From Flavobacteriaceae bacterium (GTDB taxonomy: Bacteria > Bacteroidota > Bacteroidia > Flavobacteriales > Flavobacteriaceae): a DNA stretch of 32,000 nt. The position numbers and the translations under genes were made by a program. Shown here one piece after another: positions 1 through 31,527 of this stretch (the stretch's first letter is position 1; the number at the start of each line of letters is the position of its first letter). The notes beneath the pieces are model-generated. The model had not been told where the DNA came from, did not search any database, and saw nothing but the letters and a program-made list of their open reading frames with translations. The stretch lies in contig OZ245049.1 in assembly GCA_965224465.1 (NCBI GenBank), forward strand, positions 4,590,001 to 4,622,000. The letters run 5' to 3'.

Positions 1-501
1 TTGTGGAACTGGGAAATGCCAGATATTGAGAACCAAAAACTACCCTTATTTGTTTATGATACTGTATTTAAAGCGGAGGTGCCCTATTCAATTAATACAC
101 TTGACACCAAGGCAGTTGATTTATCTAAAATAGACAAAGACATACTGCTAGAGAAAGTACTTACAGAATTTACTAGGATTAGAGCATCTGTTATTAATAA
201 AACACAAGACAAAGAAGCTTTATGTAAATTGGTAAATCGTGGAATTATACAATTATACAAAGGAGAAAAACTTAAAGACGAGGTGGTTGATGATATGATA
301 AATCTTGGAGATGGAAAAGAACCACAAGCCTTAGAGAATTTTGAAATGTGCATGTATTATCACAATAGAACTGTAACTCTAGTTAGAAAAGTTAATAAAG
401 GAGCTGTTATCTGGTTTGAGAATCCAGAAACGGGAGGGACATCCTGGCAGCCTGTTTATATATACATAGATAAGGTTACTGGGAAATGGGTGCGATGGTA
501 A
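1..501 (+). CDS. Family-A secreted/lipoprotein paralog A0, C-terminal 166 codons (5' end lies outside the window)
   Basis: The frame is open from base 1 to TAA 499-501. WNWEMPDIENQKLPLFVYDTVF...YIDKVTGKWVRW aligns residue for residue with the C-terminal halves of 3723-4625 and 4637-5539 (19/166 differences against the latter by hand alignment). Confidence 0.85.
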   Translation: MWNWEMPDIENQKLPLFVYDTVFKAEVPYSINTLDTKAVDLSKIDKDILLEKVLTEFTRIRASVINKTQDKEALCKLVNRGIIQLYKGEKLKDEVVDDMINLGDGKEPQALENFEMCMYYHNRTVTLVRKVNKGAVIWFENPETGGTSWQPVYIYIDKVTGKWVRW

Positions 502-713
502 TAAAAGAAAGTTAAAATTTGATTACCCACGGTATTTTACATAGAGTCTGATTTTTCGACGGATTTTTATTTTTCAGGAGTCACCATTTTTGTTAAATTT
601 CAAGGAGGGAGAAAGAAAAAGGATAAACCCTCTACTTTTTCCATAATCGACGATTTAAGCACTTCTTTTGATATTTTAAAAAAGAAAGGAGAATTCAAAT
701 AAAATAATAAAAA

Positions 714-1637
714 ATGAAAGCACAAAAACACCTCATACTAAGCATTGCAATGCTAGTACTTGTTAATTGTAAAGGACAAGAAAGTAAAAAAACAAACGAT
801 CATAAAAAATACGCAATGAATATACCAAAAAAACAATATTTTCTAAACTTTGAGTTATTTATGTCTTATGAAATATATATAAATGACATGAAAATAGCAA
901 ATAACATTCAATCTGGACCAGTATCTGGATTACGATATTTGAACGATTATATTTTGAATTCGGGAAAACAAACAATAACATTAATTGACCGTGATTTAGA
1001 ACCTGATTCTAATATAGCAAATGATATATTTAAAAAAATAAGTTTAGAAATTTATAGTGCAGATGAAAATGATGAAAACACAAAGTTGGAAAAGAAGTTT
1101 GATTTCCCTGATATACCAACTCCAAGACCATATTATTATAAAAACACATGGGAGTTTGATGCTGAAGTTCCTTACACCGTAGACGGATGGAAAGATGGGC
1201 AAGATTTATCAAAAATAGATCAAAAAGAGTTGAAGAAAATGGTGGTAGCGAAATTTCAACACTTAAGAACAATTTTAAATCAAGGAAAAGTAGATCAATT
1301 TATGGAAGAAAACGCCAAAGGATATAAGGAATTTGTTATTACCAACTATTATCAAAAAAAATGGCATGAATTTGACGAAAACATTAGAGAAACTATAGGT
1401 AATCAAAAGGGAATTATGCTTCCTTTAGAGCATTATAAAATGAAAATAGTTGCAAATGGTCAATTGGTAACCTTAGAAAGAATTAACCTCCCTTATAAAG
1501 GACAAAGTGCATTGTTAGCAATCAATGAAAAAATAAACAGGCTATACACTGATTATATTCATTTATATATGCCAAAAGGAAAAACAAGCTTAGAGCCAAT
1601 ACGTCTAAATATAGAATATGATCTTGCTCATTTTTAA
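714..1637 (+). CDS. Family-B probable lipoprotein B1 (distant homolog of family A), function unknown
   Basis: 307-aa ORF. MKAQKHLILSIAMLVLVNC is a signal peptide ending in Cys. It shares positional motifs with family A (ILNSGKQ/ILKSGKQ, FDAEVPYT/FNAEVPYT, DLSKIDQKEL/DLSKIDKDIL). A near-identical copy lies at 5752-6675. Confidence 0.85.
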   Translation: MKAQKHLILSIAMLVLVNCKGQESKKTNDHKKYAMNIPKKQYFLNFELFMSYEIYINDMKIANNIQSGPVSGLRYLNDYILNSGKQTITLIDRDLEPDSNIANDIFKKISLEIYSADENDENTKLEKKFDFPDIPTPRPYYYKNTWEFDAEVPYTVDGWKDGQDLSKIDQKELKKMVVAKFQHLRTILNQGKVDQFMEENAKGYKEFVITNYYQKKWHEFDENIRETIGNQKGIMLPLEHYKMKIVANGQLVTLERINLPYKGQSALLAINEKINRLYTDYIHLYMPKGKTSLEPIRLNIEYDLAHF

Positions 1638-1742
1638 AAACAACAACTTTACAACAGATTAATCATCAATGATAAAAAGGCTGCTATCTGGTTTAAGAAT
1701 TCAAAAACGAGAGGAACATCCTGGCAGCCTGTTTATACTTAA
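1638..1742 (+). pseudogene. Orphan 3' fragment of a family-A gene, no start codon
   Basis: Translates to ...NDKKAAIWFKNSKTRGTSWQPVYT*, which matches the family-A tail KRAAIWFENPETGGTSWQPVYIY. It begins directly after, and in frame with, the B1 stop (1635-1637). Confidence 0.6.
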
Positions 1743-1995
1743 TACATTTCCAAGAGACGGTTTAGAAATGGAATTATTTTTTATATCGGTCATTTTGGAT
1801 TGTAATTGGTATCATATATACATAGATAAGGTTAAAGGGCAAAGTGGCTTGTCCGAAAAAAAAGAAGTATTAAAAAAAATCAACTTCTCACTTGGTATAG
1901 CCGCTGCTTATGGTACAAATAAAATTAATTTAACACCTGATTTAGGTAAAAAAATACATGACCTAATATATGAGTTTGCCAAAGCTAAAACTTAA
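1669..1995 (+). CDS. Doubtful chimeric ORF (108 aa) spanning gene-fragment debris
   Basis: The ORF overlaps the orphan fragment out of frame. It carries a second family-A tail remnant (WYHIYIDKVKG vs VYIYIDKVTGK, about 1806-1840) fused to unrelated sequence. There is no signal peptide and no recognizable motif. Confidence 0.2.
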   Translation: MIKRLLSGLRIQKREEHPGSLFILNTFPRDGLEMELFFISVILDCNWYHIYIDKVKGQSGLSEKKEVLKKINFSLGIAAAYGTNKINLTPDLGKKIHDLIYEFAKAKT

Positions 1996-2081
1996 TTGAT
2001 TCTATAAGTGGAAATTCTGTTAGTAAAGAAAAACAAAATTCATTATACAAAAATCGGATAAAAAATCTTGGTGGAAAATGG

Positions 2082-2768
2082 ATGAAAAAACTAGACAAAC
2101 TACCTGTTACCATAACAGTGTATCAACCCAGTTTTTCAGCTGGTTTTGCATGGGGTAGGAAAACATTGGAATCACAAACAAATTGCAATGCTCCTATAAC
2201 ATATGATGTGTTTTTAAAAGCAGATCCTTTATTTAAAATGGAAGGAAGCCTAGATTTAATTACCTGTGCTACTTTTATGCCTGTTATTGGACAGGTAATA
2301 AAAGTAGTTGATATTGTATTAAATGTTGCTGGAATAGAGCCTGTATTGAAGCTTACTGCCATGGGGGAAATTAAATTATCACTAATAGGTACAATAAAAG
2401 TTGACGGCGACACCAATGAGAAAAAACTAGAAACTAAAATGAGTGCAGGACTCAAAATGACTATAGAAGCAAGTATTACTATAGGAGATGGACTGGTAGG
2501 ATTTATGTTTGCCGGTGGTGATATTATTGGTGCTGTGACAAAAAACACCTATACCGCCTATGCGGAAACAGGATTTGAATTAAACCTATCCACTGGCGTT
2601 ACGGCTCATAAAGGCCCCTATGTAGGAGTGAAACTAGAATTCCTAGGTCTTATTGCCGCAGGGAAATTAGAAACAAAAATGGATGAATATGGAGGGACTT
2701 CCGAAGAATCTTTTAAGTATATTATTATAGAGAAAACTACTTTTATAGATAAAACTTTTTACTTTTAA
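2082..2768 (+). CDS. Hypothetical 228-aa beta-rich protein without signal peptide; candidate membrane-active partner of the array
   Basis: Clean ORF whose frame is closed upstream at TAA 1986-1988. It has alternating amphipathic stretches, a Gly/small-residue hydrophobic segment GDGLVGFMFAGGDIIGAV and a C-terminal ...TFYF. Its stop at 2766-2768 lies 4 nt before the ATG of the next gene. Confidence 0.7.
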   Translation: MKKLDKLPVTITVYQPSFSAGFAWGRKTLESQTNCNAPITYDVFLKADPLFKMEGSLDLITCATFMPVIGQVIKVVDIVLNVAGIEPVLKLTAMGEIKLSLIGTIKVDGDTNEKKLETKMSAGLKMTIEASITIGDGLVGFMFAGGDIIGAVTKNTYTAYAETGFELNLSTGVTAHKGPYVGVKLEFLGLIAAGKLETKMDEYGGTSEESFKYIIIEKTTFIDKTFYF

Positions 2769-2772
2769 AATT

Positions 2773-3546
<774 letters not shown>

Positions 3547-3711
3547 AATTTTGAAATGCACTTGTATTATCACAATAGAATTGTAACTCTTCTAAAAAAA
3601 GTTGATAAAGAGTCTGCTATCTGGTTTGAGAATCCAGAAACGGGAGGGACATCCTGGCAGCCTGTTTATATATACATAGATAAGGTTACTGGGAAATGGG
3701 TGCGATGGTAA
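3547..3711 (+). pseudogene. Orphaned in-frame 3' tail of A1 downstream of the premature stop
   Basis: It continues in the same frame as 2773-3546 and reads NFEMHLYYHNRIVTLLKKVDKESAIWFENPETGGTSWQPVYIYIDKVTGKWVRW, ending at TAA 3709-3711. This is homologous to the last 54 residues of the family-A C-terminus. Confidence 0.7.
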
Positions 3712-3722
3712 TAAAAGAAAGT

Positions 3723-4625
3723 ATGAATAGAATTTTATTGATTTCGTGGGGCTGTATTTTTTTCTGTTGTTCAGTGTATGGACAACAGAAAAAAAACATG
3801 AACACCCAAACCAGCCAACAGAACAATTACCCGTATAAAAACGACAGCCGACCTGGTTATTATTTACAAATAAATAATCAGAATTGTTATTACGAACTGA
3901 GAATTAATGATTTTAATGGAGGTAATTATTTTGGTATGTACCCATCATATTCAGTACGGATCCCTTTAAATTTACGAATATTAAAAAGTGGAAAACAAAG
4001 TCTTTCTTTAAAAATAGTTCCTTATAAAGGTGATACCCTGTCTCCCAAAGCCAACCTACAAATGCGTTTGATAAAATATGCAGACATGACAGATTTAGAA
4101 AACGAATATGGAGGAAGTACTGTATTGTGGAGCTGGGAAATGCCAGATATTGAGAATCAAAAATTACCCTTATTTGTTTATGATACTGTATTTAATGCAG
4201 AAGTGCCCTATACACTTGATAGACTTGACACCAAGGCAGTTGATTTATCTAAAATAGACAAAGACATACTGCTAGAGAAAGTACTTACAGAATTTACTAG
4301 GATAAGAGCATCTATTATTAATAAAACACAAGACAAAGAAGCTTTATGTGATTTTATAGATTGTGCACTTATACAATTATACAAAGGAGAAAAACTTAAA
4401 GACGAGGTGATTGATGGTATGATAAATCTTGGAGATGGAAAAGAACCACAACCCTTAGAGAATTTTGAAATGCGCATGTATTATCACAATAGAATTGTAA
4501 CTCTGGTTAGGAAAGTTAATAAAAGGTCTGCTATCTGGTTTGAGAATCCAGAAACAGGAGGGACATCCTGGCAGCCTGTTAATCTATACATAGATAAGGT
4601 TACTGGGAAATGGGTGCGATGGTAA
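3723..4625 (+). CDS. Family-A secreted/lipoprotein paralog A2
   Basis: The ORF track starts at 3696, but that ATG lies inside the preceding gene tail. ATG 3723 gives MNRILLISWGCIFFCCSVYGQQ, a hydrophobic signal parallel to the A1 MNKILL start. It is full length, ending ...KVTGKWVRW. Confidence 0.85.
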   Translation: MNRILLISWGCIFFCCSVYGQQKKNMNTQTSQQNNYPYKNDSRPGYYLQINNQNCYYELRINDFNGGNYFGMYPSYSVRIPLNLRILKSGKQSLSLKIVPYKGDTLSPKANLQMRLIKYADMTDLENEYGGSTVLWSWEMPDIENQKLPLFVYDTVFNAEVPYTLDRLDTKAVDLSKIDKDILLEKVLTEFTRIRASIINKTQDKEALCDFIDCALIQLYKGEKLKDEVIDGMINLGDGKEPQPLENFEMRMYYHNRIVTLVRKVNKRSAIWFENPETGGTSWQPVNLYIDKVTGKWVRW

Positions 4626-4636
4626 TAAAAGAAAGT

Positions 4637-5539
4637 ATGAATAGAATTTTATTGATTTCGTGGGGCTGTATTTTTTTCTGTTGTTCAGTGTATGGACAAC
4701 AGAAAAAAAACATGAACACCCAAACCAGCCAACAGAACAATTACCCGTATAAAAACGACAGCCGACCTGGTTATTATTTACAAATAAATAATCAGAATTG
4801 TTATTACGAACTGGATACAAATGGTTTAAGTAGTGCAGAGTATTATGGCGAATACCCTGCTTATTCAACAAGAATACCTCTAAATCTTCAAATATTAAAA
4901 AGTGGAACACAAAGTCTTTCCTTAAAAATAGTTCCTTATAAAGGTGATACCCTGTCTCCAAAAGCCAACCTACAAATGCGTTTGATAAAATATGCAGACA
5001 TGACAGATTTAGAAAATGAATATGGAGGAAGTACCGTATTGTGGAACTGGGAAATGCCAGATATTGAGAATCAAAAACTACCCTTATTTGTTTATGATAC
5101 TGTATTTAGAGCAGAGATGCCCTATACAATTAATACACTTGACACCAAGGCAGTTGATTTATCTAAAATAGACAAAGACATACTGCTAGAGAAAGTACTT
5201 ACAGAATTTACTAGAATAAGAGCAACTATTATTAATAAAACACAAGACAAAGAAGCTTTATCTAAAGCTATAAAACGCCCACTTATACAATTATACAAAG
5301 GGAAAAAACTTAAAGACGAGGTGATTGATGGTATGATAAATCTTGGAGATGGAAAAGAACCACAACCCTTAGAGAATTTTGAAATGCGCATGTATTATCA
5401 CAATAGAATTGTAACTCTGGTTAGGAAAGTTAATAAAAGGGCTGCTATCTGGTTTGAGAATCCAGAAACGGGAGGGACATCCTGGCAGCCTGTTTATATA
5501 TACATAGATAAGGTTACTGGGAAATGGGTGCGATGGTAA
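4637..5539 (+). CDS. Family-A secreted/lipoprotein paralog A3
   Basis: Same logic as A2: ATG 4637 lies 11 nt after the A2 stop. The first ~60 codons are identical to A2, and the 3' portion is the counterpart of A0. Confidence 0.85.
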   Translation: MNRILLISWGCIFFCCSVYGQQKKNMNTQTSQQNNYPYKNDSRPGYYLQINNQNCYYELDTNGLSSAEYYGEYPAYSTRIPLNLQILKSGTQSLSLKIVPYKGDTLSPKANLQMRLIKYADMTDLENEYGGSTVLWNWEMPDIENQKLPLFVYDTVFRAEMPYTINTLDTKAVDLSKIDKDILLEKVLTEFTRIRATIINKTQDKEALSKAIKRPLIQLYKGKKLKDEVIDGMINLGDGKEPQPLENFEMRMYYHNRIVTLVRKVNKRAAIWFENPETGGTSWQPVYIYIDKVTGKWVRW

Positions 5540-6816
5540 TAAAAGAAAGTTAAAATTTGATTACCCACGGTATTTTACATAGAGTCTGATTTTTCGACGG
5601 ATTTTTATTTTTCAGGAGTCACCATTTTTGTTAAATTTCAAGGAGGGAGAAAGAAAAAGGATAAACCCTCTACTTTTTCCATAATCGACGATTTAAGCAC
5701 TTCTTTTGATATTTTAAAAAAGAAAGGAGAATTCAAATAAAATAATAAAAAATGAAAGCACAAAAACACCTCATACTAAGCATTGCAATGCTAGTACTTG
5801 TTAATTGTAAAGGACAAGAAAGTAAAAAAACAAACGATCATAAAAAATACGCAATGAATATACCAAAAAAACAATATTTCCTGAACTATGAGCTATTTAT
5901 GTCTTATGAATTATATATAAATGATGTAAAATTAACCAATTACATTCAATTGGGACCAGTATCTGGTATGGAGTATTTGAATGATTACATTCTGAATTCG
6001 GGAAAACAAACAATAACATTAATTGACCGTGATTTAAAACCTAATTCTAATATGCCAAATGATATATTTAAAAAAATAAGTTTAGCAATTTATAGTGCAG
6101 ATGAAAATGATGAAAACACAAAGTTGGAAAAGAAGTTTGATTTCCCTGATATACCAACTCCAATACCATATTATTATAAAAACACATGGGAGTTTGATGC
6201 CGAAGTTCCCTACACAATAGATGGATGGAAAGATGGACAAGATTTATCAAAAATAGATCAAAAAGAGTTGGAAAAAATGGTGGTAGCTAAATTTCAACAC
6301 TTAAGAACAATTTTAAATCAAGGAAAAGTGGATCAATTTATGGAAGAAAACGCCAAAGGATATAAGGAATTTGTTATTGCCAACTATTATCAAAAAAAAT
6401 GGCATGAATTTGACGAAAATATTAGAGAATTAGTAGAAGATCAAGAAGGTTTTATGCTTCCTTTAGAGGATTATAAAATGAAAGTAGTTGCAAATGGTCA
6501 ATTGGTAACCTTGGAAAGAATTAACCTTCCTTATAAAGGACAAAGTGCATTATTAGCAATCGATGAAAAAGAGAATACGATATACACTGATTATATTCAT
6601 TTATATATGCCAAAAGGAAAAACAAGCTTAGAGCCAATACGTCTGAATATAGAATATGAGGTTGCTGATTTTTAAAAACAACAACTTTACAACATATCAT
6701 TAATGATAAAAAGGCTGCTATCTGGTTTAAGAATTCAAAAACGGGAGGGACATCCTGGCAGCCTGTTTATACCAAATACATTTCCAAGAGACGGTTTAGA
6801 AATGGAATTATTTTTT
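5039..6816 (+). repeat. Segmental duplication, copy 2
   Basis: See copy 1. Homology ends after ...GGAATTATTTTTT at 6816. Confidence 0.95.
5752..6675 (+). CDS. Family-B probable lipoprotein B2
   Basis: Copy of B1 at an offset of exactly 5,038 nt, with ~33/307 residue differences by hand alignment. Confidence 0.85.
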   Translation: MKAQKHLILSIAMLVLVNCKGQESKKTNDHKKYAMNIPKKQYFLNYELFMSYELYINDVKLTNYIQLGPVSGMEYLNDYILNSGKQTITLIDRDLKPNSNMPNDIFKKISLAIYSADENDENTKLEKKFDFPDIPTPIPYYYKNTWEFDAEVPYTIDGWKDGQDLSKIDQKELEKMVVAKFQHLRTILNQGKVDQFMEENAKGYKEFVIANYYQKKWHEFDENIRELVEDQEGFMLPLEDYKMKVVANGQLVTLERINLPYKGQSALLAIDEKENTIYTDYIHLYMPKGKTSLEPIRLNIEYEVADF

Positions 6817-6827
6817 GTTTTAGCTAG
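6669..6827 (+). pseudogene. Orphan 3' fragment of a family-A gene (second copy)
   Basis: Translates to ...TTTLQHIINDKKAAIWFKNSKTGGTSWQPVYTKYISKRRFRNGIIFCFS* with no start codon. A 4-nt indel puts it out of frame relative to B2. Confidence 0.6.
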
Positions 6828-6913
6828 GCGAAAAACATAAGAATATCCCCTTAGTTGTCATTCTGTTTTTTTATCCATAACAAATCAGATTTCTTGTGAA
6901 AACAAGAAGAGTT

Positions 6914-7819
6914 TTACAATTTATAGCCTATAGAAAAAAGTACAATTCTTGGTGTGATGTATGTTTTTCTGTCAGAAACTATATAGCTGCTAAAACTATT
7001 ACTTTGTTTAAAATGTTGGTTAAATAAATTGTTAGCTGTTAAGAGAAAACTCCAAGCACTGTTTTCTTGTTGATAAAACAGAGATGATTGTGCAATTTTA
7101 TAGGTATTTCTGTTATTGATACTTTTGTTCTGATAGTGGTATTGTTCAAATTCAAAAGAGAAACTGAAATTTTCTAAAAAATCATATTCAATGTTTAGAA
7201 ATGGTTCTTGGGTAACAAAATTAGATATGTTTCCGCTAGAGGTATATTTTCCAAAACGTTGCTTGTATCCAATTTCAATGGTTGGAAATTTATCAAATAA
7301 AGTTTTTGCAGAGAGTTGATAACTGGTTTCGGTTTTCTTGTTTTTTACAAGAGTTTGGTCAATGGATTGTAAATAGTTTGAAGTGGAATAAGTTGTTTTT
7401 AAACGGTATTTTATGCGTTTTATTTTTTTATGGATGTCCAATCTGTACCTCCAGTCTTCACTTGGATTGTTTAGCATTACCGGGCTTAAATATTGATTTT
7501 TATTTTCGAACTGTACACTGTTTACAATACCTTTAATTTTTTTAGAATAGTTGAGGTTGGTATAAAGCATCAGGCCTCTGTATAAGCTAAATCTACGGAA
7601 GGAGAGTCTTGCATTGTGATAGATTTCGTTTTCCAAAGCAGTATTTCCTTTGTAAATAGAGTTGTAAGAACGTAGGTAGTAATTGTTGGCTAGTTTTGAT
7701 GCATTGCTAAACTTACTTTTAAGATGGTAGTTTAAGGTGATTTTTTTAGAATTTGAAAATTTATAAGTGCCTGTAAATTGCGGAAGTACAACTGTTTTTT
7801 GATGGTGTGTAGTATTTAT
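6914..7819 (-). pseudogene. C-terminal beta-barrel fragment of an outer-membrane receptor gene split by an IS
   Basis: The minus-strand frame is open from the IS boundary (...INTTHHQKTVVLPQFTGTYKF...) down to the stop at 6914. It ends ...VLFSIGYKL and has an alternating beta-strand pattern. The first canonical start is only an internal TTG at 7636. Confidence 0.8.
7812..7819. repeat. Target-site duplication GTATTTAT (left copy)
   Basis: The identical 8-mer directly abuts the other IS end at 9235-9242. Confidence 0.85.
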
Positions 7820-7844
7820 GGTTGTGTAATTTAAACTCTGTCTG
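7820..7844. repeat. IS terminal inverted repeat (transposase-distal end)
   Basis: GGTTGTGTAATTTAAACTCTGTCTG compared with the reverse complement of 9210-9234, GGGACTGTAAACTCAACTCTGTCTG. 19/25 positions match, including a perfect inner 11-mer AACTCTGTCTG. Confidence 0.8.
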
Positions 7845-7860
7845 CTTGTTTTTTTCTACG

Positions 7861-7920
7861 TTTTAAAATAGTTCGATTTTCTCTTCATAAGGCTGCTTTA
7901 AAAATCGAACTATTTTAAAA
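7861..7920 (-). terminator. Perfect 20-bp-stem hairpin inside the IS, downstream of the transposase stop
   Basis: TTTTAAAATAGTTCGATTTT (7861-7880) is the exact reverse complement of 7901-7920, with a 20-nt loop. It lies 20 nt past the stop at 7940. Confidence 0.4.
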
Positions 7921-7939
7921 TGAGCCCCAGCGGCTAGCG

Positions 7940-9172
7940 TCACGAACTGCTTCCGTTTTTATGTAAATCCAACGTTATTCGATCTTCAAATTTAATATAT
8001 AATTGTTGAATTGTCAAGCACCAATTATGTAAAGGGTTTGTCCATTTTTTTTCGATATTTTTTGTTGCTAAGTAAACAAGCTTCAATAGTGCCATATCAC
8101 TGGTAAAAGCCCCTTTTGTTTTAGTTACTTTTCTTACCTGTCTATGAAAACCTTCTACTGCATTTGTTGTGTAAATTATTTTTCTGATAGGTTCTGTATA
8201 CTGAAAAAACTGAGATAACTCTTCCCAATTACGGTTCCAGCTTTCTAAAACTACAGGGTATTTTTCTCCCCATTTTTCTTCTAATTTCAATAACTCCAAC
8301 TCAGCAATATCTTTATTAACTGCCTTGTAAACAAGCTTTAAATCTCGAATAAATTCTTTTTGATCTTTGGAAGCTATATACTTTAAAGAATTACGAATTT
8401 GATGAACAATACACTTTTGAATTTGTGTTTTAGGAAATACACTCAAGATAGCTTCTGAAAACCCTTTTAAGTTGTCTGTACAGGCAATTAGGATATCCTT
8501 AAGCCCTCTGTTATTAAGGTCTGTCAATACTTGAAGCCAAAAATTTGCGCCTTCACTTTCTGAAATATACATTCCTAAAACCTCTTTTATCCCTTCTTTA
8601 TTTACTCCTAAAACATTGTAAAGTGCTTTGTGTTGTATTTTACCGTCTACTTTTACCTTGTAATGCATAGCGTCAAGCCAAACAATGCAGTACATCTGTT
8701 CTACTGGACGACTTTGCCATTGTTTTATATCGGGTATGATCTTATCTGTAATTTGACTTAAAACAGTGTGTGATATATCTGTATCATACATCTCTTTTAT
8801 ATGACCAGAAATATCGCGTAAGCTCATTCCTAAGCCATATAATCCAATGATCTTATCTGATAAATTATCTGCTAAAATGGTTTGACGCTTTTTTATCAGA
8901 ACAGGCTCGAAACTACTATTTCTATCCGCTGGCGTACTTATTTCAAAACTACCAATACTAGTTTTAACAGTCTTTTTGCCCTTTCCGTTACGTTTATTCC
9001 CTTTAGAACGTTCCTCTTCACTAAGGTGTGATTCCATTTCTGCTTCCAATGCTTTCTCAAGAAATTGTTTCATTAAAGGAGCAAAGGCACCTTCTTTTCC
9101 GAATAAACTTTTTCCTGATAATAATTGATCCAATGCCTTTTTTTCAATGTTGGCTAACTCGTCTTTTGTCAT
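7940..9172 (-). CDS. IS256-family (mutator-type) transposase
   Basis: 410 aa. The layout and motifs are typical of Transposase_mut proteins (WLDAMHYKV, ACTDNLKGFSEAI, QKCIVHQIRNSLKY, YTTNAVEGFHRQVRKVTK). Confidence 0.9.
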   Translation of the reverse strand: MTKDELANIEKKALDQLLSGKSLFGKEGAFAPLMKQFLEKALEAEMESHLSEEERSKGNKRNGKGKKTVKTSIGSFEISTPADRNSSFEPVLIKKRQTILADNLSDKIIGLYGLGMSLRDISGHIKEMYDTDISHTVLSQITDKIIPDIKQWQSRPVEQMYCIVWLDAMHYKVKVDGKIQHKALYNVLGVNKEGIKEVLGMYISESEGANFWLQVLTDLNNRGLKDILIACTDNLKGFSEAILSVFPKTQIQKCIVHQIRNSLKYIASKDQKEFIRDLKLVYKAVNKDIAELELLKLEEKWGEKYPVVLESWNRNWEELSQFFQYTEPIRKIIYTTNAVEGFHRQVRKVTKTKGAFTSDMALLKLVYLATKNIEKKWTNPLHNWCLTIQQLYIKFEDRITLDLHKNGSSS

Positions 9173-9209
9173 GTTTTCTGTTTGAATAAAGTTAATACTT
9201 TTTTTTATT

Positions 9210-9234
9210 CAGACAGAGTTGAGTTTACAGTCCC
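9210..9234. repeat. IS terminal inverted repeat (transposase-proximal end)
   Basis: See 7820-7844. Confidence 0.8.
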
Positions 9235-10985
9235 GTATTTATATTCCAGTTGTATTGATGCAAAAAAGCACCTTGTTTCGCTGTGAATTTACCGATTTTG
9301 AATTTGTAATCCAATCCTAAAAAAACATCCTGTAAGTTATAATTAAGTTGATTGTTAAATCCGTTTACGTCAAAGTTTTTACTGCTTCCGTCTTTTAATT
9401 TTTGGAAGTCGTTAGTATTGAATTCTTCATCTAATAAGTGGCTGCCAAGTGTTGTGTATATATGATTACTTTTATCTAAAATCCAATAATGTTTGGCAAT
9501 AAAATCAATCGTATGAATGCTGTTTTCTTTTTTTTGTATAAATGTATAGTTGTCTTGTGGTTTTAAAGGTATTAATCCTTGTAATAATTGCTTGTTTGTA
9601 AACCAAGTGGTGTAGGGGGTGTTCTTGTTCAAGGCAATATTAACAGCAAAAGAAAATGTGTGTTTATAGCTTAATTGAGTATGCCATTCTAAGCTTTGAA
9701 GGATATGGCTTGTTTTAGTATTTTGCTTGCTTAAAATAATAGTACTGTCATCTGTAATTGTAGAATTGATGCTGTTGTTATTTGAATGATCACTCTTTTT
9801 AATTTGGGTTTTTAAAAGCGATTTAGAATGTGCACTAGGTTCATAATCAAAGGTGATTTTGACGATGCTTAACCCGTTTTTTTGTGAAGAGTTATTACTG
9901 TTAAGCTCGTCGAATTGTGTGTATTGATTTAGTGTTTTTGTAGTGCTTTTAGTATGTGTGTTTGAAAATATACCATATCCAGAAACTTCCGTTTTATTAG
10001 TAATGCTTTGTCGAATGTTGATGGCACTGAATCTGTTTTTACTAGCAGTGTAATCTTGAATGTCCATGAATTGCGTAAAATCATTCATGCTACTTCCAAA
10101 AAAAGTACCATCACCTTTTAATGCCGCGTTTATGCCTCCTTGAAAATTCATGTAATCTTTAAATGTGAATACCTTTTCTCCTGTATTATTTGTGTTTGTA
10201 ATTAAATTGATGTTTGTTTTTGGGCTGTAATAGAATAAATTTCCATGAGCTCTGTAATACTTATTATTGCCTTTTCCTGCTTCAATATCACCAAACAAAA
10301 ACTTTTTCTTGTCTTTTTTCAATAAAATATTCAGGGCAGTTTGATTGCTTTCGGAAACGTTTTTTAAAAATGCAATCTCGTTGTAGTTCTCCAATACTTG
10401 TATGTTGCCTACCGCATTTGCGGGGATGTTTTCAATGGCAAGTTTTGTGCCTCCTCCAAAAAACGGTTTTCCATCCACTAATAATTTGTCTATTTTTTTC
10501 CCAAGTACGGTAATTTCAGCATCTTTAGAGATTTCTATACCCGGTAGTTTTTTTAATATGTTTTTTAATTTTCTTTCCTTGCCATTTATAAATTTAGAGG
10601 TGTTATAAGTAATTGTGTCTTCTTTTATGGATACGGGTAGCTCAATAATTATTTCTTCTAAATTATTGGACTGTTCCTTTAAGATGATCTCTTTTAAACT
10701 GTTTTTAACTGCTTCAAATTTGAAACTATAGGATTTGTATCCCATATAACTAACTTTTACACTATAAGATTCATTTGGTTTGAGTTTTAGTAGATACCTT
10801 CCTTTGGCATCACTAATCGAGAATTTTAATTGTAGTTGCTTGTTTGCAGGCTCAGCAATAATGTTCGCATAAACAATAGGGTTTTGTATGCTGTCTTTAA
10901 CTGTTCCTTTAAGAATGGTTTGTGCATAGGAGCTCCATCCAATAAGAATAATAATGTTAAGAAATAAAACAGTTTTACAATTCAT
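9225..10985 (-). pseudogene. N-terminal fragment of the outer-membrane receptor (signal peptide, CarboxypepD_reg-like domain, plug-like domain, start of barrel), truncated by the IS
   Basis: MNCKTVLFLNIIILIGWSSYAQ is a signal peptide. TILKGTVKDSIQNPIVYANI...YSVKVSYMGYKS looks carboxypeptidase-regulatory-like. LPGIEISKDAEITVLGKKIDKLLVDGKPFFGG looks like a TonB-receptor plug. The last 3 codons and the stop (TGL*) are read from IS sequence. Confidence 0.8.
9235..9242. repeat. Target-site duplication GTATTTAT (right copy)
   Basis: See 7812-7819. Confidence 0.85.
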
Positions 10986-11719
10986 TAATTACGCATGTTT
11001 TTAATGCCTTCCCAAATACTGCTCTCTAACTTTAAAAATTCTTGTTGACTTATTTTTTCTCCTTTATTAGGTGCTGAAATATTGAGTTTGGATTTATTTA
11101 TGATTACTTTTTTTGCTTTGTAGGTAAAGTTGTTGATTGTTAATTCGAGAATCATTCCTGGAAGACTTCCAAAACTATGAGGACCAAAAGGGAAGGAGAT
11201 TTCAGGGCAAAACCATGCATATATTACCGTTTTTTTTATCCCTTTTTGTGTTGCTTGTTCCATAGATGCAGTAGCTTTATAGCAGACATATTTACCTACT
11301 TTTTTAGTCTGAGAGCTTATCTTCCATTTCCATTTGTTAAAGGGGCTTCGGATTAAATAATTGTCTCCTCTTACTTCTTTTGATCGTAGTTGGTAGTTTT
11401 CTGATATATTGGCATATCGTACTTTGTCGCTGTCTTGATAGTAAGCAAGATTAATACCTGCATTATCTAATTGTAAGGGCTCGTTTTTTTCTAATAATGC
11501 TTCATTTGTGTTAAATATCAACGTAAAGCTTACGGGGCGTATGTTTTTGTAGGTTGCTAGCATTTTACTTCTGAATTGCTTGGGAGCTTTATGTAAGTTG
11601 GCTATTTTTTTAGCTAGAGTTAGTGTGCCTTCGTAAGTTATTTTTCCTGAGTTGTATTGGGAGTGTGTTATTTGACTTAAAATGAGTAAGTGAAATAGTG
11701 TGATTATTAATTTTTTCAT
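10985..11719 (-). CDS. GLPGLI-family protein
   Basis: 244 aa with a signal peptide MKKLIITLFHLLILSQITHSQ and the family motif region FGPHSFGSLPGMILEL. Its stop overlaps the receptor start (TAATG), the usual pairing of GLPGLI genes with this receptor type. Confidence 0.75.
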   Translation of the reverse strand: MKKLIITLFHLLILSQITHSQYNSGKITYEGTLTLAKKIANLHKAPKQFRSKMLATYKNIRPVSFTLIFNTNEALLEKNEPLQLDNAGINLAYYQDSDKVRYANISENYQLRSKEVRGDNYLIRSPFNKWKWKISSQTKKVGKYVCYKATASMEQATQKGIKKTVIYAWFCPEISFPFGPHSFGSLPGMILELTINNFTYKAKKVIINKSKLNISAPNKGEKISQQEFLKLESSIWEGIKNMRN

Positions 11720-12315: not shown

Positions 12316-12885
12316 TTACTTTAAATTAAAAACCTCTTCAAAGTGTAAAGTCTTTACATTGGCCATTCCTAAATTGATGGCTTCTTTATTTAAAGGAATT
12401 AAGTGGTGGTAACGCTCTGGTAGCGATTTTTTCAAACCTTCGATCACGTTTTCCAATTTAACAATTGGTTTAACCTTTAGGAACGCCCCTAAAATCACCA
12501 TATTAAAAATTTTTAAATTCCCTTTTTCTGTTGCCAGTCTATTTCCTTCTATTTGATAGATATGAATATCGCTACGTTTTGGATGTTCTGTAATTCCGTT
12601 GGGATCGTAGATTAATACGCCTCCTGGTTTTACAGCCTCCTCAAATTTATCCATACTTTGTTGGTTTAAAACAATAACGGTATCAAATATTTTTAAATAG
12701 GGAGAGCTAATGCGGTCATCACTTAATATAACCGTTACATTTGCAGTACCTCCTCGCATTTCTGGTCCATAAGAAGGCATCCAACTTACTTCCTGATCTT
12801 GCATAATACCAGAATAAGCTAATATTTTCCCCATAGAAAGTACGCCTTGACCTCCAAATCCTGCAATTATAATTTCTTCTGTCAT
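12316..12885 (-). CDS. 2-oxoacid:ferredoxin oxidoreductase, gamma subunit
   Basis: 189 aa. The N-terminal IIIAGFGGQGVLSMGKIL is typical of POR/VOR/KGOR gamma subunits. It is 6 nt from the beta gene. Confidence 0.85.
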   Translation of the reverse strand: MTEEIIIAGFGGQGVLSMGKILAYSGIMQDQEVSWMPSYGPEMRGGTANVTVILSDDRISSPYLKIFDTVIVLNQQSMDKFEEAVKPGGVLIYDPNGITEHPKRSDIHIYQIEGNRLATEKGNLKIFNMVILGAFLKVKPIVKLENVIEGLKKSLPERYHHLIPLNKEAINLGMANVKTLHFEEVFNLK

Positions 12886-12891
12886 GCTGAT

Positions 12892-13665
12892 TTATTTTAA
12901 TTTACCATTCACTTTAATATCTCCTAAAGGATAGTAAGCAAACATGTTTTCTTCCATCCAAATATTAGATTCTGTCGGAGTCATTTTCCATCCAGAATTA
13001 CAGTTAGAGACTATTTCTACAAAAGAAATGCCTTTGTGTAAGCGTGTGTTTTCAAAAGCTTTTTTTAGCGCTTTCTTTGCTTTACGTGCATGTTTATGGG
13101 TGTGTACTGCTTGTCTTGTGGCATAATAAACACCAGGAAGATTGGCAACCAACTCTGTCATTTTTAAAGGTGCACCTGTCAGTTCTTCTTGCCTTCCAAA
13201 AGGGGAGGTGGAGGATTTCATTCCTTTTAAAGTTGTAGGTGCCATTTGCCCGCCTGTCATCCCATAAATACCATTATTCACAAAAATAATGACGATGTTT
13301 TCTCCTCTGTTACAAGCGTGTATTGTTTCTGCTGTACCAATTGCGGCTAGATCGCCATCACCTTGGTAGGTGAATACATATTTTTCTGGCCACAATCTTG
13401 AAATTGCAGTGGCAAGTGCGGGTGCTCTACCGTGAGCTGCCTGTGTCATGTCTATATTCATGAAGTCATAAGCCAGTACAGAGCAACCTACAGGAGCGAC
13501 TCCGATAGTGTCCTGAATAATTCCCATTTCTGCCACAACTTCCATGGCTAAATTATGAGCGGTTCCGTGTCCACAGCCGGGGCAGTAGGACAAACAGGTA
13601 TCCGTCATGGCTTCGGTCTTACAAAATACTTTGTTGGCTGGTTTTATGATGTCTAACAGTTCCAT
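12892..13665 (-). CDS. 2-oxoacid:ferredoxin oxidoreductase, beta (TPP-binding) subunit
   Basis: Carries the CPGCGHG motif and the TPP signature GDGD...NNGIYGMTGGQ. Confidence 0.85.
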   Translation of the reverse strand: MELLDIIKPANKVFCKTEAMTDTCLSYCPGCGHGTAHNLAMEVVAEMGIIQDTIGVAPVGCSVLAYDFMNIDMTQAAHGRAPALATAISRLWPEKYVFTYQGDGDLAAIGTAETIHACNRGENIVIIFVNNGIYGMTGGQMAPTTLKGMKSSTSPFGRQEELTGAPLKMTELVANLPGVYYATRQAVHTHKHARKAKKALKKAFENTRLHKGISFVEIVSNCNSGWKMTPTESNIWMEENMFAYYPLGDIKVNGKLK

Positions 13666-14746
13666 TGTGTATGATTTTTTGTTCTAATGCTTCTAAAATT
13701 TCTTCTGGTGTGTGTATAATTCCTCCGGTGCGTCCAAAGTGTTCAACGGGTACTTTGTGTTCTACAGATAAACGTACATCTTCTACCATTTGACCAGTGC
13801 TTAATTCTACACTTAAAAATCCTTTTACGCGATCAGCAAGATCAAATAATTGTTTTTTAGGGAAGGGAAATAGGGTGATAGGTCTTAATAAGCCTACTTT
13901 ATATCCTTTGTCTCTTGCCAATTCCATTGCTTTTAATGCGATACGTGCACTAGACCCGTAGGCAACCATCACGTATTCTGCGTCGTCGCAGTTTACCATT
14001 TCGTAGCGTAAATCTTCGCGTTCCATTTGAGCGTATTTAGCATACAGACGATGTACACGTTCTTCTAACTTTTCGGACTGTAAGTCTAAAGAAGTTACAA
14101 TGTTTCGTTCACGTTCAGGTGTTTTTCCTGTACAAGCCCAAGAACCTTCTTCTGTAATTAATTCTTCGTTTGTTCTACGTACTTTTTGTGGTCTGAGCGC
14201 TACTTTTTCCATCATTTGACCTATCAATCCGTCAGATAAAATCAATACTGGAGCTCTGTATTTAAAGGCGATATCAAAGGCGTCTTCTACAAAATCTGAC
14301 ATTTCTTGTACAGATGCAGGAGCTAAAACATAGAGTTTGTAATCTCCATGTCCACCACCTTTTACTGCTTGGAAATAATCTGCTTGTGAGGGTTGGATTG
14401 TTCCTAATCCAGGACCTCCACGTGCTACATTTACGATGACTGCTGGTAGTTCTGCGCCTGCTAAATAAGAAATGCCTTCTAATTTTAAAGACATTCCTGG
14501 GCTAGAGGAGGAGGTCATTGCTTTTTTTCCAGTACTTGCTGCACCGTATACCATATTTATAGCGGCCAATTCACTTTCTGCTTGCAGCACTATCATGCCG
14601 GTACGTTTTTCAGGTTGTTCGGCCATTAAATATTCAATCACCTCGGATTGCGGGGTGATGGGATAGCCAAAATAAGCATCTACTCCTGCACGAATTGCTG
14701 CTTCGGCCAATGCTTCATTACCTTTCATTAATTTTAATTCAGACAT
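13619..14746 (-). CDS. 2-oxoacid:ferredoxin oxidoreductase, alpha subunit
   Basis: 375 aa. LMKGNEALAEAAIRAGVDAYFGYPITPQSE is typical of KorA/PorA/VorA. It overlaps the beta start by 47 nt. Confidence 0.85.
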   Translation of the reverse strand: MSELKLMKGNEALAEAAIRAGVDAYFGYPITPQSEVIEYLMAEQPEKRTGMIVLQAESELAAINMVYGAASTGKKAMTSSSSPGMSLKLEGISYLAGAELPAVIVNVARGGPGLGTIQPSQADYFQAVKGGGHGDYKLYVLAPASVQEMSDFVEDAFDIAFKYRAPVLILSDGLIGQMMEKVALRPQKVRRTNEELITEEGSWACTGKTPERERNIVTSLDLQSEKLEERVHRLYAKYAQMEREDLRYEMVNCDDAEYVMVAYGSSARIALKAMELARDKGYKVGLLRPITLFPFPKKQLFDLADRVKGFLSVELSTGQMVEDVRLSVEHKVPVEHFGRTGGIIHTPEEILEALEQKIIHNGTVRHHKTSQQSIL

Positions 14747-14769
14747 ATGTTGTAATTAAAAGGATAAAT

Positions 14770-14997
14770 TTATGATACTTTTACGCGGTACACGGAAATG
14801 GCTCTATCTGGACAAACAATACCGCAGTTTGTACATCCTGTACATGCCTCTGGATTTTCCATATAAGCATAATGATAACCTTTTCTATTTACTTGTGGTG
14901 TCATTTTTATGACATCTTCTGGGCAAACAGGGATGCAGATTTCACAACCTTTGCAAATTTCACTGTCTACTACTATCGCGCCTTTAACTTTTGCCAT
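14770..14997 (-). CDS. 4Fe-4S dicluster ferredoxin-type delta subunit
   Basis: 75 aa with two CxxCxxCxxxCP motifs (CKGCEICIPVCP, CTGCTNCGIVCP). It is the first gene of the operon. Confidence 0.85.
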   Translation of the reverse strand: MAKVKGAIVVDSEICKGCEICIPVCPEDVIKMTPQVNRKGYHYAYMENPEACTGCTNCGIVCPDRAISVYRVKVS

Positions 14998-15043
14998 TAT
15001 GATAATTTTAGGGGTGATTAATAGGGGTAAATTTTGTTATTCT

Positions 15044-15051
15044 CAAATATA
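15044..15051 (-). promoter_or_regulatory. Candidate Bacteroidota -7 box (TATATTTG on the minus strand) for the oxidoreductase operon
   Basis: Matches the TAnnTTTG consensus, 47 nt upstream of ATG 14997. Confidence 0.35.
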
Positions 15052-15151
15052 TAACCATTATGGTATAAAATATATGATATTTATCAATTTGACTGATGAA
15101 TGTCATGATTTGTTATTGTTAAGGGGGCGTTGAGATTTAACTAAAGTCCAT

Positions 15152-15179
15152 AAAAAAACCACCTTAAGGTGGTTTTTTT
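15152..15179 (-). terminator. Rho-independent (bidirectional-looking) terminator after the E1 gene
   Basis: Perfect palindrome AAAAAAACCACC-TTAA-GGTGGTTTTTTT, 31 nt past the stop at 15210. Confidence 0.8.
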
Positions 15180-15209
15180 AGTTTATTTAGAATGAGTTAA
15201 AAAAGGTGT

Positions 15210-31103: not shown

Positions 31104-31177
31104 GCCGATGTAGCTCAGCTGGCTAGAGCAGCTGATTTGTAATCAGCAGGTCGCGGGTTCGAGTCCCTCCATTGGCT
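31104..31177 (+). tRNA. tRNA-Thr (anticodon TGT)
   Basis: Cloverleaf folded by hand: acceptor GCCGATG/CATTGGC, anticodon stem GCTGA/TCAGC with loop TTTGTAA, T-loop GGTTCGAGTCC. Confidence 0.9.
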
Positions 31178-31201
31178 CTGGAATAATAAAGTACTTAGGT
31201 T

Positions 31202-31229
31202 AAAAAAAATGTAGCAATACATTTTTTTT
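31202..31229 (+). terminator. Palindromic A8/T8 hairpin between tRNA-Thr and tRNA-Tyr
   Basis: AAAAAAAATGTA-GCAA-TACATTTTTTTT, a perfect 12-bp stem. Confidence 0.55.
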
Positions 31230-31314
31230 ATGAGTTAGGACGAAATAGCAAACTAAGTAAAATATCGAAGAAAAGTCCTTTCCTAGATGTGTTCATTGAA
31301 AGAAATAATTATAT

Positions 31315-31395
<81 letters not shown>

Positions 31396-31408
31396 CAATT
31401 ATTTTGTG

Positions 31409-31436: not shown

Positions 31437-31445
31437 CAAAACAAT

Positions 31446-31518: not shown

Positions 31519-31527
31519 CAAATTATT

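What the first reader, a model, noticed from the sequence alone, without database searches (positions are those of the whole stretch)
1..6830. Mosaic head-to-tail array of two related secreted-protein families: candidate immunity or variable-surface cassette locus
Six paralogous ORFs sit on one strand: A0 1-501, B1 714-1637, A1 2773-3546, A2 3723-4625, A3 4637-5539 and B2 5752-6675. The A genes are separated by only 11 nt (TAA 3709-3711 to ATG 3723; TAA 4623-4625 to ATG 4637). Families A and B are themselves distant homologs, sharing ILxSGKQ, FxAEVPYT and DLSKIDxxxL at equivalent positions. Nucleotide identity is block-wise. A 287-nt block covers the last ~33 codons of one gene, the spacer and the first ~59 codons of the next. 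It is almost identical at 3613-3899 and 4527-4813 (about 3 mismatches by eye), while adjacent blocks are strongly diverged. I recognise no characterised domain. The C-terminal half (a helix DLSKID...RIRASI followed by strands ending AIWFENPETGGTSWQPVYIYIDKVTGKWVRW) gives me an NTF2/SnoaL-like impression only. Block mosaicism together with gene fragments is what recombining cassette loci look like. Examples are the orphan immunity-gene arrays next to polymorphic toxins or T6SS in Bacteroidota, and variable lipoprotein families. The array runs off the left window edge, so any cognate toxin or secretion genes would lie upstream.
Basis: partly seen in the sequence, partly recalled or inferred. Interest (0 to 1): 0.8.

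Follow-up and report, generated by a model that had tools for sequence, protein, structure and literature searches.

The report
Orphan T6SS toxin-immunity cassette array

Summary
A0, B1, A1, A2, A3 and B2 are at the stated coordinates. A and B are true distant homologues. The 287-nt block differs at exactly 3 positions.

This is a 5'-truncated copy of the last ~310 codons of a 985-aa protein (P0071) from the same 5.24-Mb genome.

In 16 of 16 related loci from other Flavobacteriaceae, the ~1000-aa homologue follows a DUF4280 (PAAR-like) gene. VgrG is detected upstream in 15 of them, and Hcp (TssD) in four. An A/B-family gene always follows it directly.

Identity of the toxin's C-terminal region tracks identity of the downstream A/B gene (Mantel r=0.95, p=2e-4). 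Identity of its N-terminal region does not (r=0.04).

All A/B proteins carry lipoprotein signals, and the toxin tip has hydrophobic Gly/Ala-rich segments.

I read the window as the distal 1.4 modules of an amplified array, each module being [B, toxin-tip fragment, A, A, A]. The genome holds at least 8 toxin tips, 10 distinct A proteins and 7 distinct B proteins.

Neither family matches Pfam, NCBIfam or the PDB. This is a new member of a known kind. The T6SS link in this genome itself could not be checked.

The parts
1..501 (+). A0: last 166 codons of an A-family lipoprotein gene. The full-length product is P0002 (309 aa as called).
   Evidence: The translation is identical to the C-terminal half of P0002. 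P0002 lies on a 5,241,564-bp contig.
502..713 (+). A-to-B intergenic spacer, identical to 5540-5751.
   Evidence: offset 5038, 100% identity over 501-800.
714..1637 (+). B1: 307-aa B-family predicted lipoprotein (signal peptide ending LVLVNC). Candidate immunity protein for a different toxin-tip class, the one seen in A. aquimarini and Aequorivita.
   Evidence: B is 58-66% identical to the gene directly after effectors whose C-terminal region shows no BLAST similarity to the window cassette (L002, L015; also the orphan cassette in L011).
1676..1741 (+). Remnant of an A-gene 3' end (reads KAAIWFKNSKTRGTSWQPVYT*), fused upstream of the toxin fragment.
   Evidence: Repeat family D4, the sequence shown, and comparison with the A 3' ends.
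1840..2768 (+). Orphan effector C-terminal cassette: about 310 codons homologous to the 3' end of the 985-aa effector P0071. It lacks the N-terminal ~640 residues. A -1 frameshift in an A-run near 1990 splits it into ORFs 1669-1995 and 2082-2768.
   Evidence: 90% cluster with P0070 366 aa and P0071 985 aa. (96-100% identity to the P0071 C-terminal part). (sequence at the frameshift).
2773..3711 (+). A1: the first A gene after the cassette, starting 4 nt after its stop. Lipobox LTTAC, (CAA)16 poly-Q linker at 2826-2873, in-frame TAA at 3547-3549 (pseudogene or truncated).
3723..4625 (+). A2: intact 300-aa A-family predicted lipoprotein (candidate immunity).
   Evidence: AlphaFold model pLDDT 84.9.
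4637..5539 (+). A3: intact 300-aa A-family predicted lipoprotein (candidate immunity).
5752..6675 (+). B2: 307-aa B-family predicted lipoprotein, 89% identical to B1.
6696..6817 (+). Start of a further module (A 3' remnant plus junction), cut off at ~6817. This is the right-hand end of the array.
   Evidence: 96% identity to 1662-1782. (similarity ends after GGAATTATTTTTT).

Best explanation
Window 1-6817 is the distal end of a tandemly amplified array of type VI secretion (T6SS-iii, Bacteroidota type) effector-immunity cassettes in an Aquimarina-like flavobacterium.

The parent gene is a ~985-aa cargo effector. Its N-terminal ~620 residues are conserved and presumably load it onto the VgrG/DUF4280 (PAAR-like) spike. 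Its C-terminal ~300 residues form a variable toxin region.

Each array module holds four kinds of element:
- a B gene;
- a remnant of an A 3' end;
- a promoter-less, start-less copy of the effector's last ~310 codons;
- up to three A genes.

A and B are exported lipoproteins of one superfamily. A is the cognate immunity protein for the toxin-tip class encoded here. B is an orphan immunity protein against a second tip class made by other strains.

The immunity proteins are periplasm-facing lipoproteins and the tip has hydrophobic Gly/Ala-rich segments. I therefore infer that the toxin attacks the target cell envelope, probably by inserting into or permeabilising the inner membrane, and that immunity works by binding it in the periplasm.

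The near-identical flanks let modules recombine by unequal crossing-over and gene conversion. This would amplify immunity dosage and breadth. It could also move a stored tip into the expressed effector gene.

Shown: gene anatomy, homology, copy numbers, operon context in relatives, co-variation, and mosaic structure.

Inferred: toxicity, immunity, envelope target, cassette switching, and adjacency to a T6SS operon in this genome.
For: 1. Toxin fragment in the array. ORFs 1669-1995 and 2082-2768 match the C-terminal part of P0071 at 96-100% identity. They cluster with 366-, 487- and 228-aa fragments from the same 5,241,564-bp contig.

2. T6SS context. In L001-L016 the ~1000-aa homologue follows DUF4280 in 16 of 16 loci. 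VgrG (Phage_GPD/Phage_base_V) is detected upstream in 15 of 16, with TssD/Hcp genes in L001, L011, L013 and L015. DUF4280 is a PAAR-like T6SS family (PMC5014421, found).

3. Immunity position. An A/B-family gene is the next gene after the effector in 16 of 16 loci. In seven loci the start overlaps the effector's stop by 4 nt. The window cassette keeps this layout (stop 2768, ATG 2773).

4. Modular co-variation. Identity of the last 300 effector residues against identity of the next gene gives Mantel r=0.95, p=2e-4. N-terminal identity against the next gene gives r=0.04. L005 and L006 are 81% identical in the N-terminal region but 24% in the tip.

5. Export. Every A/B protein examined has a signal peptide ending in Cys.

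6. Hydrophobic segments at P0071 812-851 and 883-909, with equivalents in the other tip class.

7. Amplification and mosaicism. The genome has at least 8 distinct tips, 10 distinct A and 7 distinct B proteins. The tips differ at 13 of 228 positions, 11 of them within a 22-residue patch. A copies vary in patches at residues 58-78, 158-167, 206-216 and 251-270. Differences between A2 and A3 are clustered, with synonymous and non-synonymous changes together at codons 61-80.

8. Orphan effector fragments after immunity genes recur in L004, L006, L008 and L011; L007 carries one in a separate array upstream of its effector operon.
Against: - The genome that holds the window could not be fetched, and it was not among the genome-contig hits.
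- A search with the A. longa DUF4280 protein returned no protein from the 5,241,564-bp contig. A VgrG/PAAR operon next to P0071 in this genome is therefore unverified and may be absent, degraded or divergent.
- Neither effector nor A/B matches any Pfam, NCBIfam or PDB entry.
- The effector model is unusable (pLDDT 49.7), so the toxic activity is only guessed.
- Overall dN/dS between paralogues is below 1 (0.27-0.70), so there is no global signal of positive selection.
- A1 and the window's toxin cassette are both disrupted, so part of the array may be decaying.
- No promoter or terminator signal above chance was found.
Confidence: 0.78

Rival explanations
1. A and B are variable surface or outer-membrane lipoproteins. 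They would be diversified by recombination to evade phage, predators or a host, and their position next to T6SS genes would be incidental.
For: Lipoprotein signals. Tandem paralogues with block mosaicism and hypervariable patches. A length-variable (CAA)n linker after the lipid-anchor Cys. No similarity to named immunity families.
Against: An A/B gene lies directly after the ~1000-aa VgrG/DUF4280-linked protein in 16 of 16 loci, often with overlapping stop and start. A/B identity follows the identity of that protein's C-terminal region and not its N-terminal region. The array carries truncated copies of that protein's 3' end, which a surface-antigen system has no reason to keep.
Confidence: 0.08
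2. The array is a decaying by-product of repeated unequal crossing-over, made of pseudogenised duplicates with no present function. Only the copy next to the full-length effector would be working.
For: In-frame stop in A1. Frameshift in the window's toxin cassette. Truncated copies elsewhere in the genome: P0055 282 aa, P0067 273 aa, and P0072/P0077, which look like pieces of a broken effector copy. An IS256-family element lies just to the right.
Against: A2, A3, B1 and B2 are intact. dN/dS is 0.27-0.47 between intact copies, which indicates purifying selection. The triple-A arrangement with the same A-A junction is shared with A. longa. Homopolymer frameshifts could also be sequencing errors.
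Confidence: 0.1
3. A/B proteins are accessory factors for the effector (chaperone, adaptor or maturation factor) rather than immunity proteins.
For: Tight linkage and co-variation with the effector C-terminal region would also be expected of a dedicated chaperone.
Against: T6SS chaperones and adaptors act in the producer's cytoplasm, whereas A/B carry lipoprotein export signals. Pure arrays of nine A/B genes without an effector fragment exist in C. algicola. That fits orphan immunity and not chaperones.
Confidence: 0.04

Closest known systems
Orphan immunity-gene arrays downstream of T6SS effector-immunity modules in Vibrio cholerae (Kirchberger et al. 2017, PMC5361080)
   Same: Arrays lie at the 3' side of VgrG-linked effector genes. 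They build up by homologous recombination that displaces effector ends and keeps old immunity genes. The clusters have a mosaic structure (abstract read).
   Different: This is the Bacteroidota T6SS-iii context, with an unrelated effector and immunity family. The array also keeps at least 7 truncated toxin-tip copies that are more than 90% identical to the expressed one. Modules look tandemly amplified rather than acquired one by one from other strains.
Orphan C-terminal toxin/immunity cassettes of Rhs and CdiA polymorphic toxins (my own knowledge of the polymorphic-toxin literature)
   Same: 5'-truncated toxin-tip fragments lack a start codon and the delivery region. Each is followed by its immunity gene. 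Each shares a stretch of homology with the full-length gene that would allow cassette exchange.
   Different: There are no Rhs/YD repeats and no CdiA features, and no Pfam hit at all. The stored tips are micro-variants of one toxin class, differing mainly in a 22-residue patch, not unrelated toxin domains.
[quoted passage not shown] 2025 preprint, PMC12247911)
   Same: Orphan immunity genes against T6SS effectors are arrayed in Bacteroidota. The copies diverge from cognate immunity genes, with changes suspected at the effector interface (abstract read).
   Different: No recombinase is seen within the window. The array holds one immunity superfamily plus toxin fragments, not mixed immunity families. 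The hosts are marine Flavobacteriaceae, not gut Bacteroidales.
Membrane-targeting T6SS effectors with periplasmic or membrane immunity proteins (e.g. VasX/TsiV2, Tse4/Tsi4, Ssp6/Sip6; my own knowledge)
   Same: The immunity partner is exported or lipid-anchored, and the toxin region has hydrophobic Gly/Ala-rich segments.
   Different: There is no sequence or fold similarity to any of them. The activity is untested.

Membership tests
T6SS cargo effector / immunity pair | The effector gene is encoded with VgrG, a PAAR-like protein and Hcp. | tested here: inconclusive
   Met in relatives: DUF4280 upstream in 16 of 16 loci, VgrG in 15 of 16, TssD in L001, L011, L013 and L015. Not verifiable for the window's own genome. 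A DUF4280 search found no protein from the 5,241,564-bp contig, and the genome could not be fetched.
T6SS cargo effector / immunity pair | The immunity gene lies immediately downstream of the effector and is specific to it. | tested here: met
   An A/B-family gene is the next gene in 16 of 16 loci. Tip identity against next-gene identity gives Mantel r=0.95, p=2e-4, while N-terminal identity gives r=0.04. In the window, the cassette stop is at 2768 and the A1 ATG at 2773.
T6SS cargo effector / immunity pair | The effector is toxic, secreted through the T6SS, and neutralised by the immunity protein. | not testable with these tools
   This needs expression, secretion and competition assays.
Polymorphic toxin with orphan cassettes (Rhs/CdiA-like logic) | A conserved delivery region is joined to a variable C-terminal toxin region. 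| tested here: met
   In the alignment of 19 homologues, invariant columns are dense up to ~residue 620 and sparse after it. Three tip classes plus singletons were found. The A-type and C-type tip classes share only ~140 residues of pre-toxin region (hhalign probability 93.7%). A-type against B-type is weak (26%).
Polymorphic toxin with orphan cassettes (Rhs/CdiA-like logic) | 5'-truncated toxin fragments, each followed by an immunity gene, lie downstream of the full-length gene. | tested here: inconclusive
   The fragment-plus-immunity structure is met in the window and downstream of the effector in L004, L006, L008 and L011. Whether the window's array is contiguous with P0071 could not be tested.
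Rhs / CdiA / named toxin and Imm Pfam families | A significant match to the family profile. | tested here: not met
   There is no Pfam or NCBIfam hit for P0071, P0070, A2 or B1 at E<=0.1-1 other than noise. None of 30 diverse A/B superfamily members share a Pfam family.
rAID (recombinase-associated orphan immunity arrays) | An adjacent tyrosine recombinase and an array of mixed immunity families. | tested here: not met
   No recombinase lies in 1-12 kb of the window; the only mobile gene is an IS256/Mutator transposase at 7940-9172. The array holds a single superfamily plus toxin fragments. The left flank is unseen.
   The model has three helices (180-234) followed by six short strands (248-299), an order compatible with an alpha+beta cone. 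The whole-chain Foldseek search of the PDB gave no match at E<=0.001, and no NTF2-like protein was among the top 50. A search with the C-terminal domain alone was not possible.
Bacterial lipoprotein | A signal peptide with a lipobox Cys. | tested here: met
   The N-termini end in LTTAC, LVNC, FISC, SISC and similar in A, B and distant homologues. This rests on motif inspection and a hydropathy scan only; no dedicated predictor was available.

The most novel reading that the evidence does not exclude
The array may be a working cassette store for specificity switching. The at least 8 stored toxin tips differ almost only in a 22-residue patch near the C-terminus, and the A copies differ in a few matching patches. 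Recombination between the conserved flanks could swap a stored tip into the expressed effector gene while the cell already carries immunity to every stored allele. That would be a toxin-immunity analogue of pilE/pilS-type antigenic variation. It would let a strain change which kin it can kill without passing through a self-sensitive state.
Probability: 0.2. Interest if true: 0.7.

Novelty: new member of a known kind. Interest (0 to 1): 0.5.

Why it matters
The locus points to a previously unnamed effector family and an unnamed immunity superfamily for the little-studied T6SS-iii of marine Flavobacteriaceae. The effector family is about 1000 aa long with about 20 homologues found. The immunity superfamily consists of ~300-aa lipoproteins in about 700 clusters at 50% identity. 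Neither has a Pfam or PDB relative.

It also gives an unusually clean natural experiment. One genome holds many near-identical toxin tips and immunity copies whose differences are confined to short patches. Those patches nominate the specificity-determining interface for direct testing.

The general logic, orphan toxin-immunity cassettes beside a secretion-system effector, is already well known from Rhs, CDI, Vibrio T6SS and Bacteroidales AID systems.

Tried and rejected
- **Fetching the window's own genome.** Exact look-ups of P0001, P0002 and B1 found no recorded gene position. The genome-contig scan returned 14 loci from other species but not this genome.
- **Confirming a PAAR-like gene in this genome.** A search with the A. 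longa DUF4280 protein listed 75 hits, none from a 5,241,564-bp contig. This neither confirms nor rules out a T6SS here.
- **Effector structure.** AlphaFold2 with 19 sequences gave pLDDT 49.7. Its long C-terminal beta-hairpins are below confidence, and Foldseek hits are generic Ig-like noise. I do not use them.
- **A-protein fold search.** The best PDB E-value was 0.037 with TM<0.2. The NTF2-like idea is left open.
- **Profile searches of the PDB** with the A/B and effector alignments. The only hit was a spurious match to the designed repeat protein Tako8, with no stretch passing on its own.
- **Promoters and terminators.** The Bacteroidota promoter motif TTTG-N17-23-TAnnTTTG has no match in 1-7000 and occurs at the chance rate in the whole window. 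Sigma-70-like sites and terminators do not exceed the shuffled expectation.
- **Whole-gene positive selection.** Rejected, since dN/dS is 0.27-0.70. Only local clustering of changes is seen.
- **Assembly-duplication artefact.** Rejected, because the copies differ at many positions in a block-wise pattern.
- **Diversity-generating retroelement.** Considered for the hypervariable patch. No reverse transcriptase is in the window, and DNA for the other tip copies was unavailable, so it was not tested.

Full report
**1. Observation**

- A0 1-501, open at the left edge
- B1 714-1637
- A1 2773-3546
- A2 3723-4625
- A3 4637-5539
- B2 5752-6675

The 11-nt A-A spacers are as described. The block 3613-3899 against 4527-4813 has exactly three mismatches, and the next 50-nt window falls to 56% identity. 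Direct-repeat families with 914-nt spacing, and a module period of 5038 nt, confirm a head-to-tail array. Over 501-800 against 5539-5838 the two modules are 100% identical. A and B are genuine distant homologues: BLASTP gives 27-28% identity with E from 1e-10 to 6e-12.

Two details were missed:
- A1 stops at 3546 only because GAG has become TAA at 3547-3549. The reading frame continues to 3711.
- The undescribed interval 1638-2772 is not spacer.

**2. What lies between B1 and A1**

ORFs 1669-1995 and 2082-2768 belong to a 90%-identity protein cluster with nine members. All nine come from one 5,241,564-bp contig, the same contig that carries proteins identical to the window's A0, A2, A3, B1 and B2.

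That cluster holds a 985-aa protein (P0071), a 487-aa piece, four 366-aa pieces, a 285-aa piece and two 228-aa pieces. The 366-aa pieces equal the last ~310 residues of P0071 preceded by about 57 residues of out-of-frame sequence. The window copy is the same piece, split by loss of one A in an A5 run near 1990 (sequence compared with P0070).

Upstream of it, ~1676-1741 is a degenerate A 3' end. The same junction starts again after B2 at 6696, and similarity ends at ~6817.

The repeating module is therefore [B, A-remnant, truncated 3' end of the 985-aa gene, A, A, A]. The window holds the last 1.4 modules.

To the right lie ordinary chromosomal genes:
- an outer-membrane-protein gene split by an IS256/Mutator element
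- a GLPGLI-family gene
- 2-oxoacid:ferredoxin oxidoreductase subunits
- uvrA
- transporters
- four tRNAs

**3. What the 985-aa protein is**

It has no Pfam, NCBIfam or PDB sequence match. About 20 homologues exist in Aquimarina, Tamlana, Cellulophaga, Spongiivirga and Aequorivita.

I examined sixteen loci (L001-L016; L002 and L009 are two A. aquimarini assemblies). In all of them the homologue follows a DUF4280 gene. In 15 of 16 a VgrG gene (Phage_GPD/Phage_base_V) lies further upstream. TssD (Bacteroidota Hcp) genes are present in L001, L011, L013 and L015. DUF4280 proteins are PAAR-like T6SS spike proteins (PMC5014421, listed).

This is the standard layout of a spike-loaded T6SS cargo effector.

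**4. What A and B are**

In 16 of 16 loci the next gene after the effector is an A/B-superfamily member. In seven loci its start overlaps the effector's stop by 4 nt. In the window, A1 starts 4 nt after the cassette's stop.

The effector's N-terminal ~620 residues are well conserved, and its C-terminal ~350 are not. Across 13 loci, pairwise identity of the last 300 effector residues predicts identity of the downstream gene (Mantel r=0.95, p=2e-4; partial correlation 0.96 after removing N-terminal identity). N-terminal identity does not predict it (r=0.04). L005 and L006 are 81% identical in the N-terminal region but 24% identical in the tip, and they carry different downstream genes.

The tips fall into classes:
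- A-type: L001, L006, L014 and the window. These are followed by A genes at 62-70% identity.
- B-type: L002/L009, L015 and an orphan cassette in L011. These are followed by B genes at 58-66% identity.
- A third class, with singletons.

Profile comparison shows that the A-type and third-class tips share ~140 residues before the first hydrophobic segment (probability 93.7%). The remainder is not detectably similar. A-type against B-type is weak.

Co-inheritance of tip and next gene, independent of the delivery region, is the signature of a polymorphic toxin with a cognate immunity gene.

**5. Likely mechanism**

Every A/B protein inspected has an N-terminal hydrophobic signal ending in Cys (LTTAC, LVNC, FISC, SISC and similar), which marks a lipoprotein.

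The AlphaFold model of A2 is confident (pLDDT 84.9, pTM 0.79). It has a disordered linker (residues 1-34), a beta-sandwich (45-159), and a domain of three helices followed by six strands (180-299).

The toxin tip has hydrophobic Gly/Ala-rich segments at P0071 812-851 and 883-909, with counterparts in the B-type tip.

An exported, lipid-anchored immunity protein implies that the toxin acts in the target's envelope. With the hydrophobic segments, membrane insertion or permeabilisation is my best guess, at about 45% confidence. It is an inference only, because the effector model is unusable (pLDDT 49.7).

**6. Array dynamics**

The genome encodes at least 8 distinct tip copies, at least 10 distinct A proteins and at least 7 distinct B proteins. 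Identical copies would collapse in these counts, so they are lower bounds.

The eight tips differ at only 13 of their last 228 positions. Eleven of those lie within a 22-residue patch 12-33 residues from the C-terminus, with up to four alleles per site. A copies vary in patches at residues 58-78, 158-167, 206-216 and 251-270. B copies vary in patches near 54-74 and 227-240.

Between A2 and A3, codons 61-80 carry 9 synonymous and 15 non-synonymous differences. This indicates an imported older block, meaning recombination. Codons 201-220 carry 1 synonymous and 9 non-synonymous differences. Whole-gene dN/dS is 0.27-0.70.

The mature part of A1 is identical to P0060, although the two have different signal peptides. 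This is direct evidence of mosaicism.

A. longa has the same effector-A-A-A arrangement, with the same kind of A-A junction. Its three copies are closer to each other (87-91%) than to the window's copies (71-79%). This indicates an old triplication kept similar by gene conversion.

C. algicola has nine A/B-superfamily genes in a row, flanked by transposase genes. They sit opposite a DUF4280 operon with an unrelated 949-aa protein that has its own B-like downstream gene.

A profile search finds 709 clusters (at 50% identity) of the A/B superfamily. None of 30 diverse members has a shared Pfam domain.

**7. Comparison with known systems**

The logic matches three known systems:
- orphan toxin-tip/immunity cassettes of Rhs and CdiA (my own knowledge);
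- immunity arrays built by effector displacement in V. cholerae T6SS clusters (PMC5361080);
- orphan immunity arrays of gut Bacteroidales (PMC12247911).

It differs in three ways:
- the families involved have no profile match;
- the setting is T6SS-iii in marine Flavobacteriaceae;
- the stored tips are micro-variants of one class rather than unrelated toxins.

No recombinase of the rAID kind is visible.

**8. Limits**

I could not read the sequence left of the window. A DUF4280 search returned no protein from this genome's contig. The link between this particular array and a working T6SS therefore rests on the presence of P0071 in the genome and on conserved synteny in relatives.

A1 and the window's tip cassette are disrupted. 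These may be real pseudogenes or homopolymer and base-call errors.

No expression signals were detectable.

**9. Verdict**

The immunity-array interpretation is supported.

This is a new effector/immunity family within a well-known kind of system, with an unusually amplified and finely variegated array. Interest is moderate (0.5). It would be higher if cassette switching of the specificity patch were shown.

Noticed in passing
window 6914-10985 (- strand): An outer-membrane-type gene appears split by an IS256/Mutator-family element. Its N-terminal part is at 9225-10985 (CarboxypepD_reg domain) and its C-terminal part at 6914-7636. The transposase is at 7940-9172, with 20-nt inverted repeats at 7825-7844 and 9210-9229. 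A GLPGLI-family gene follows at 10985-11719.
   Followed up: partly
window 2826-2873: A perfect (CAA)16 repeat encodes a poly-Q linker just after the lipobox Cys of A1. The paralogue P0003 has a shorter Q run at the same place, so the linker length varies between copies.
   Followed up: partly
window ~1987-1992 and 3547-3549: A one-base loss in an A5 run splits the toxin cassette, and GAG has become TAA to truncate A1. Other copies in the genome are also truncated (P0055, P0067, P0072/P0077). It is unclear whether this is real decay or long-read homopolymer error.
   Followed up: partly
L001-L016, between the DUF4280 gene and the effector gene: There are two alternative gene sets. A 452-457-aa DUF4280 protein comes with a ~380-aa Sortilin/BNR-like beta-propeller protein. 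A 533-653-aa DUF4280 protein comes with one to four ~130-aa proteins, some weakly CarboxypepD_reg-like. They may be alternative adaptors for loading the effector.
   Followed up: no
L017 (Cellulophaga algicola DSM 14237, CP002453.1 4239873-4260772): Nine A/B-superfamily lipoprotein genes of three subfamilies lie in a row without toxin fragments, flanked by transposase genes. Opposite them is a DUF4280 operon whose 949-aa protein shows no BLAST similarity to P0071 yet is followed by a B-like gene.
   Followed up: partly
L002 17260-18390; L010 13998-14399; L014 17066-17500: A conserved ~140-aa gene recurs just beyond the immunity genes. In A. aquimarini it is followed by a CHAP-domain protein, so this may be a second effector-immunity pair.
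   Followed up: no
alignment A4: One distant A/B-superfamily member is fused to ankyrin repeats.
   Followed up: no
window 31104-31600: A cluster of four tRNA genes lies on the + strand.
   Followed up: no
window 12316-17663 (- strand): The 2-oxoacid:ferredoxin oxidoreductase subunits and an E1/transketolase-like dehydrogenase gene lie in a stretch with higher G+C (0.36-0.42) than the array (0.30-0.34).
   Followed up: no
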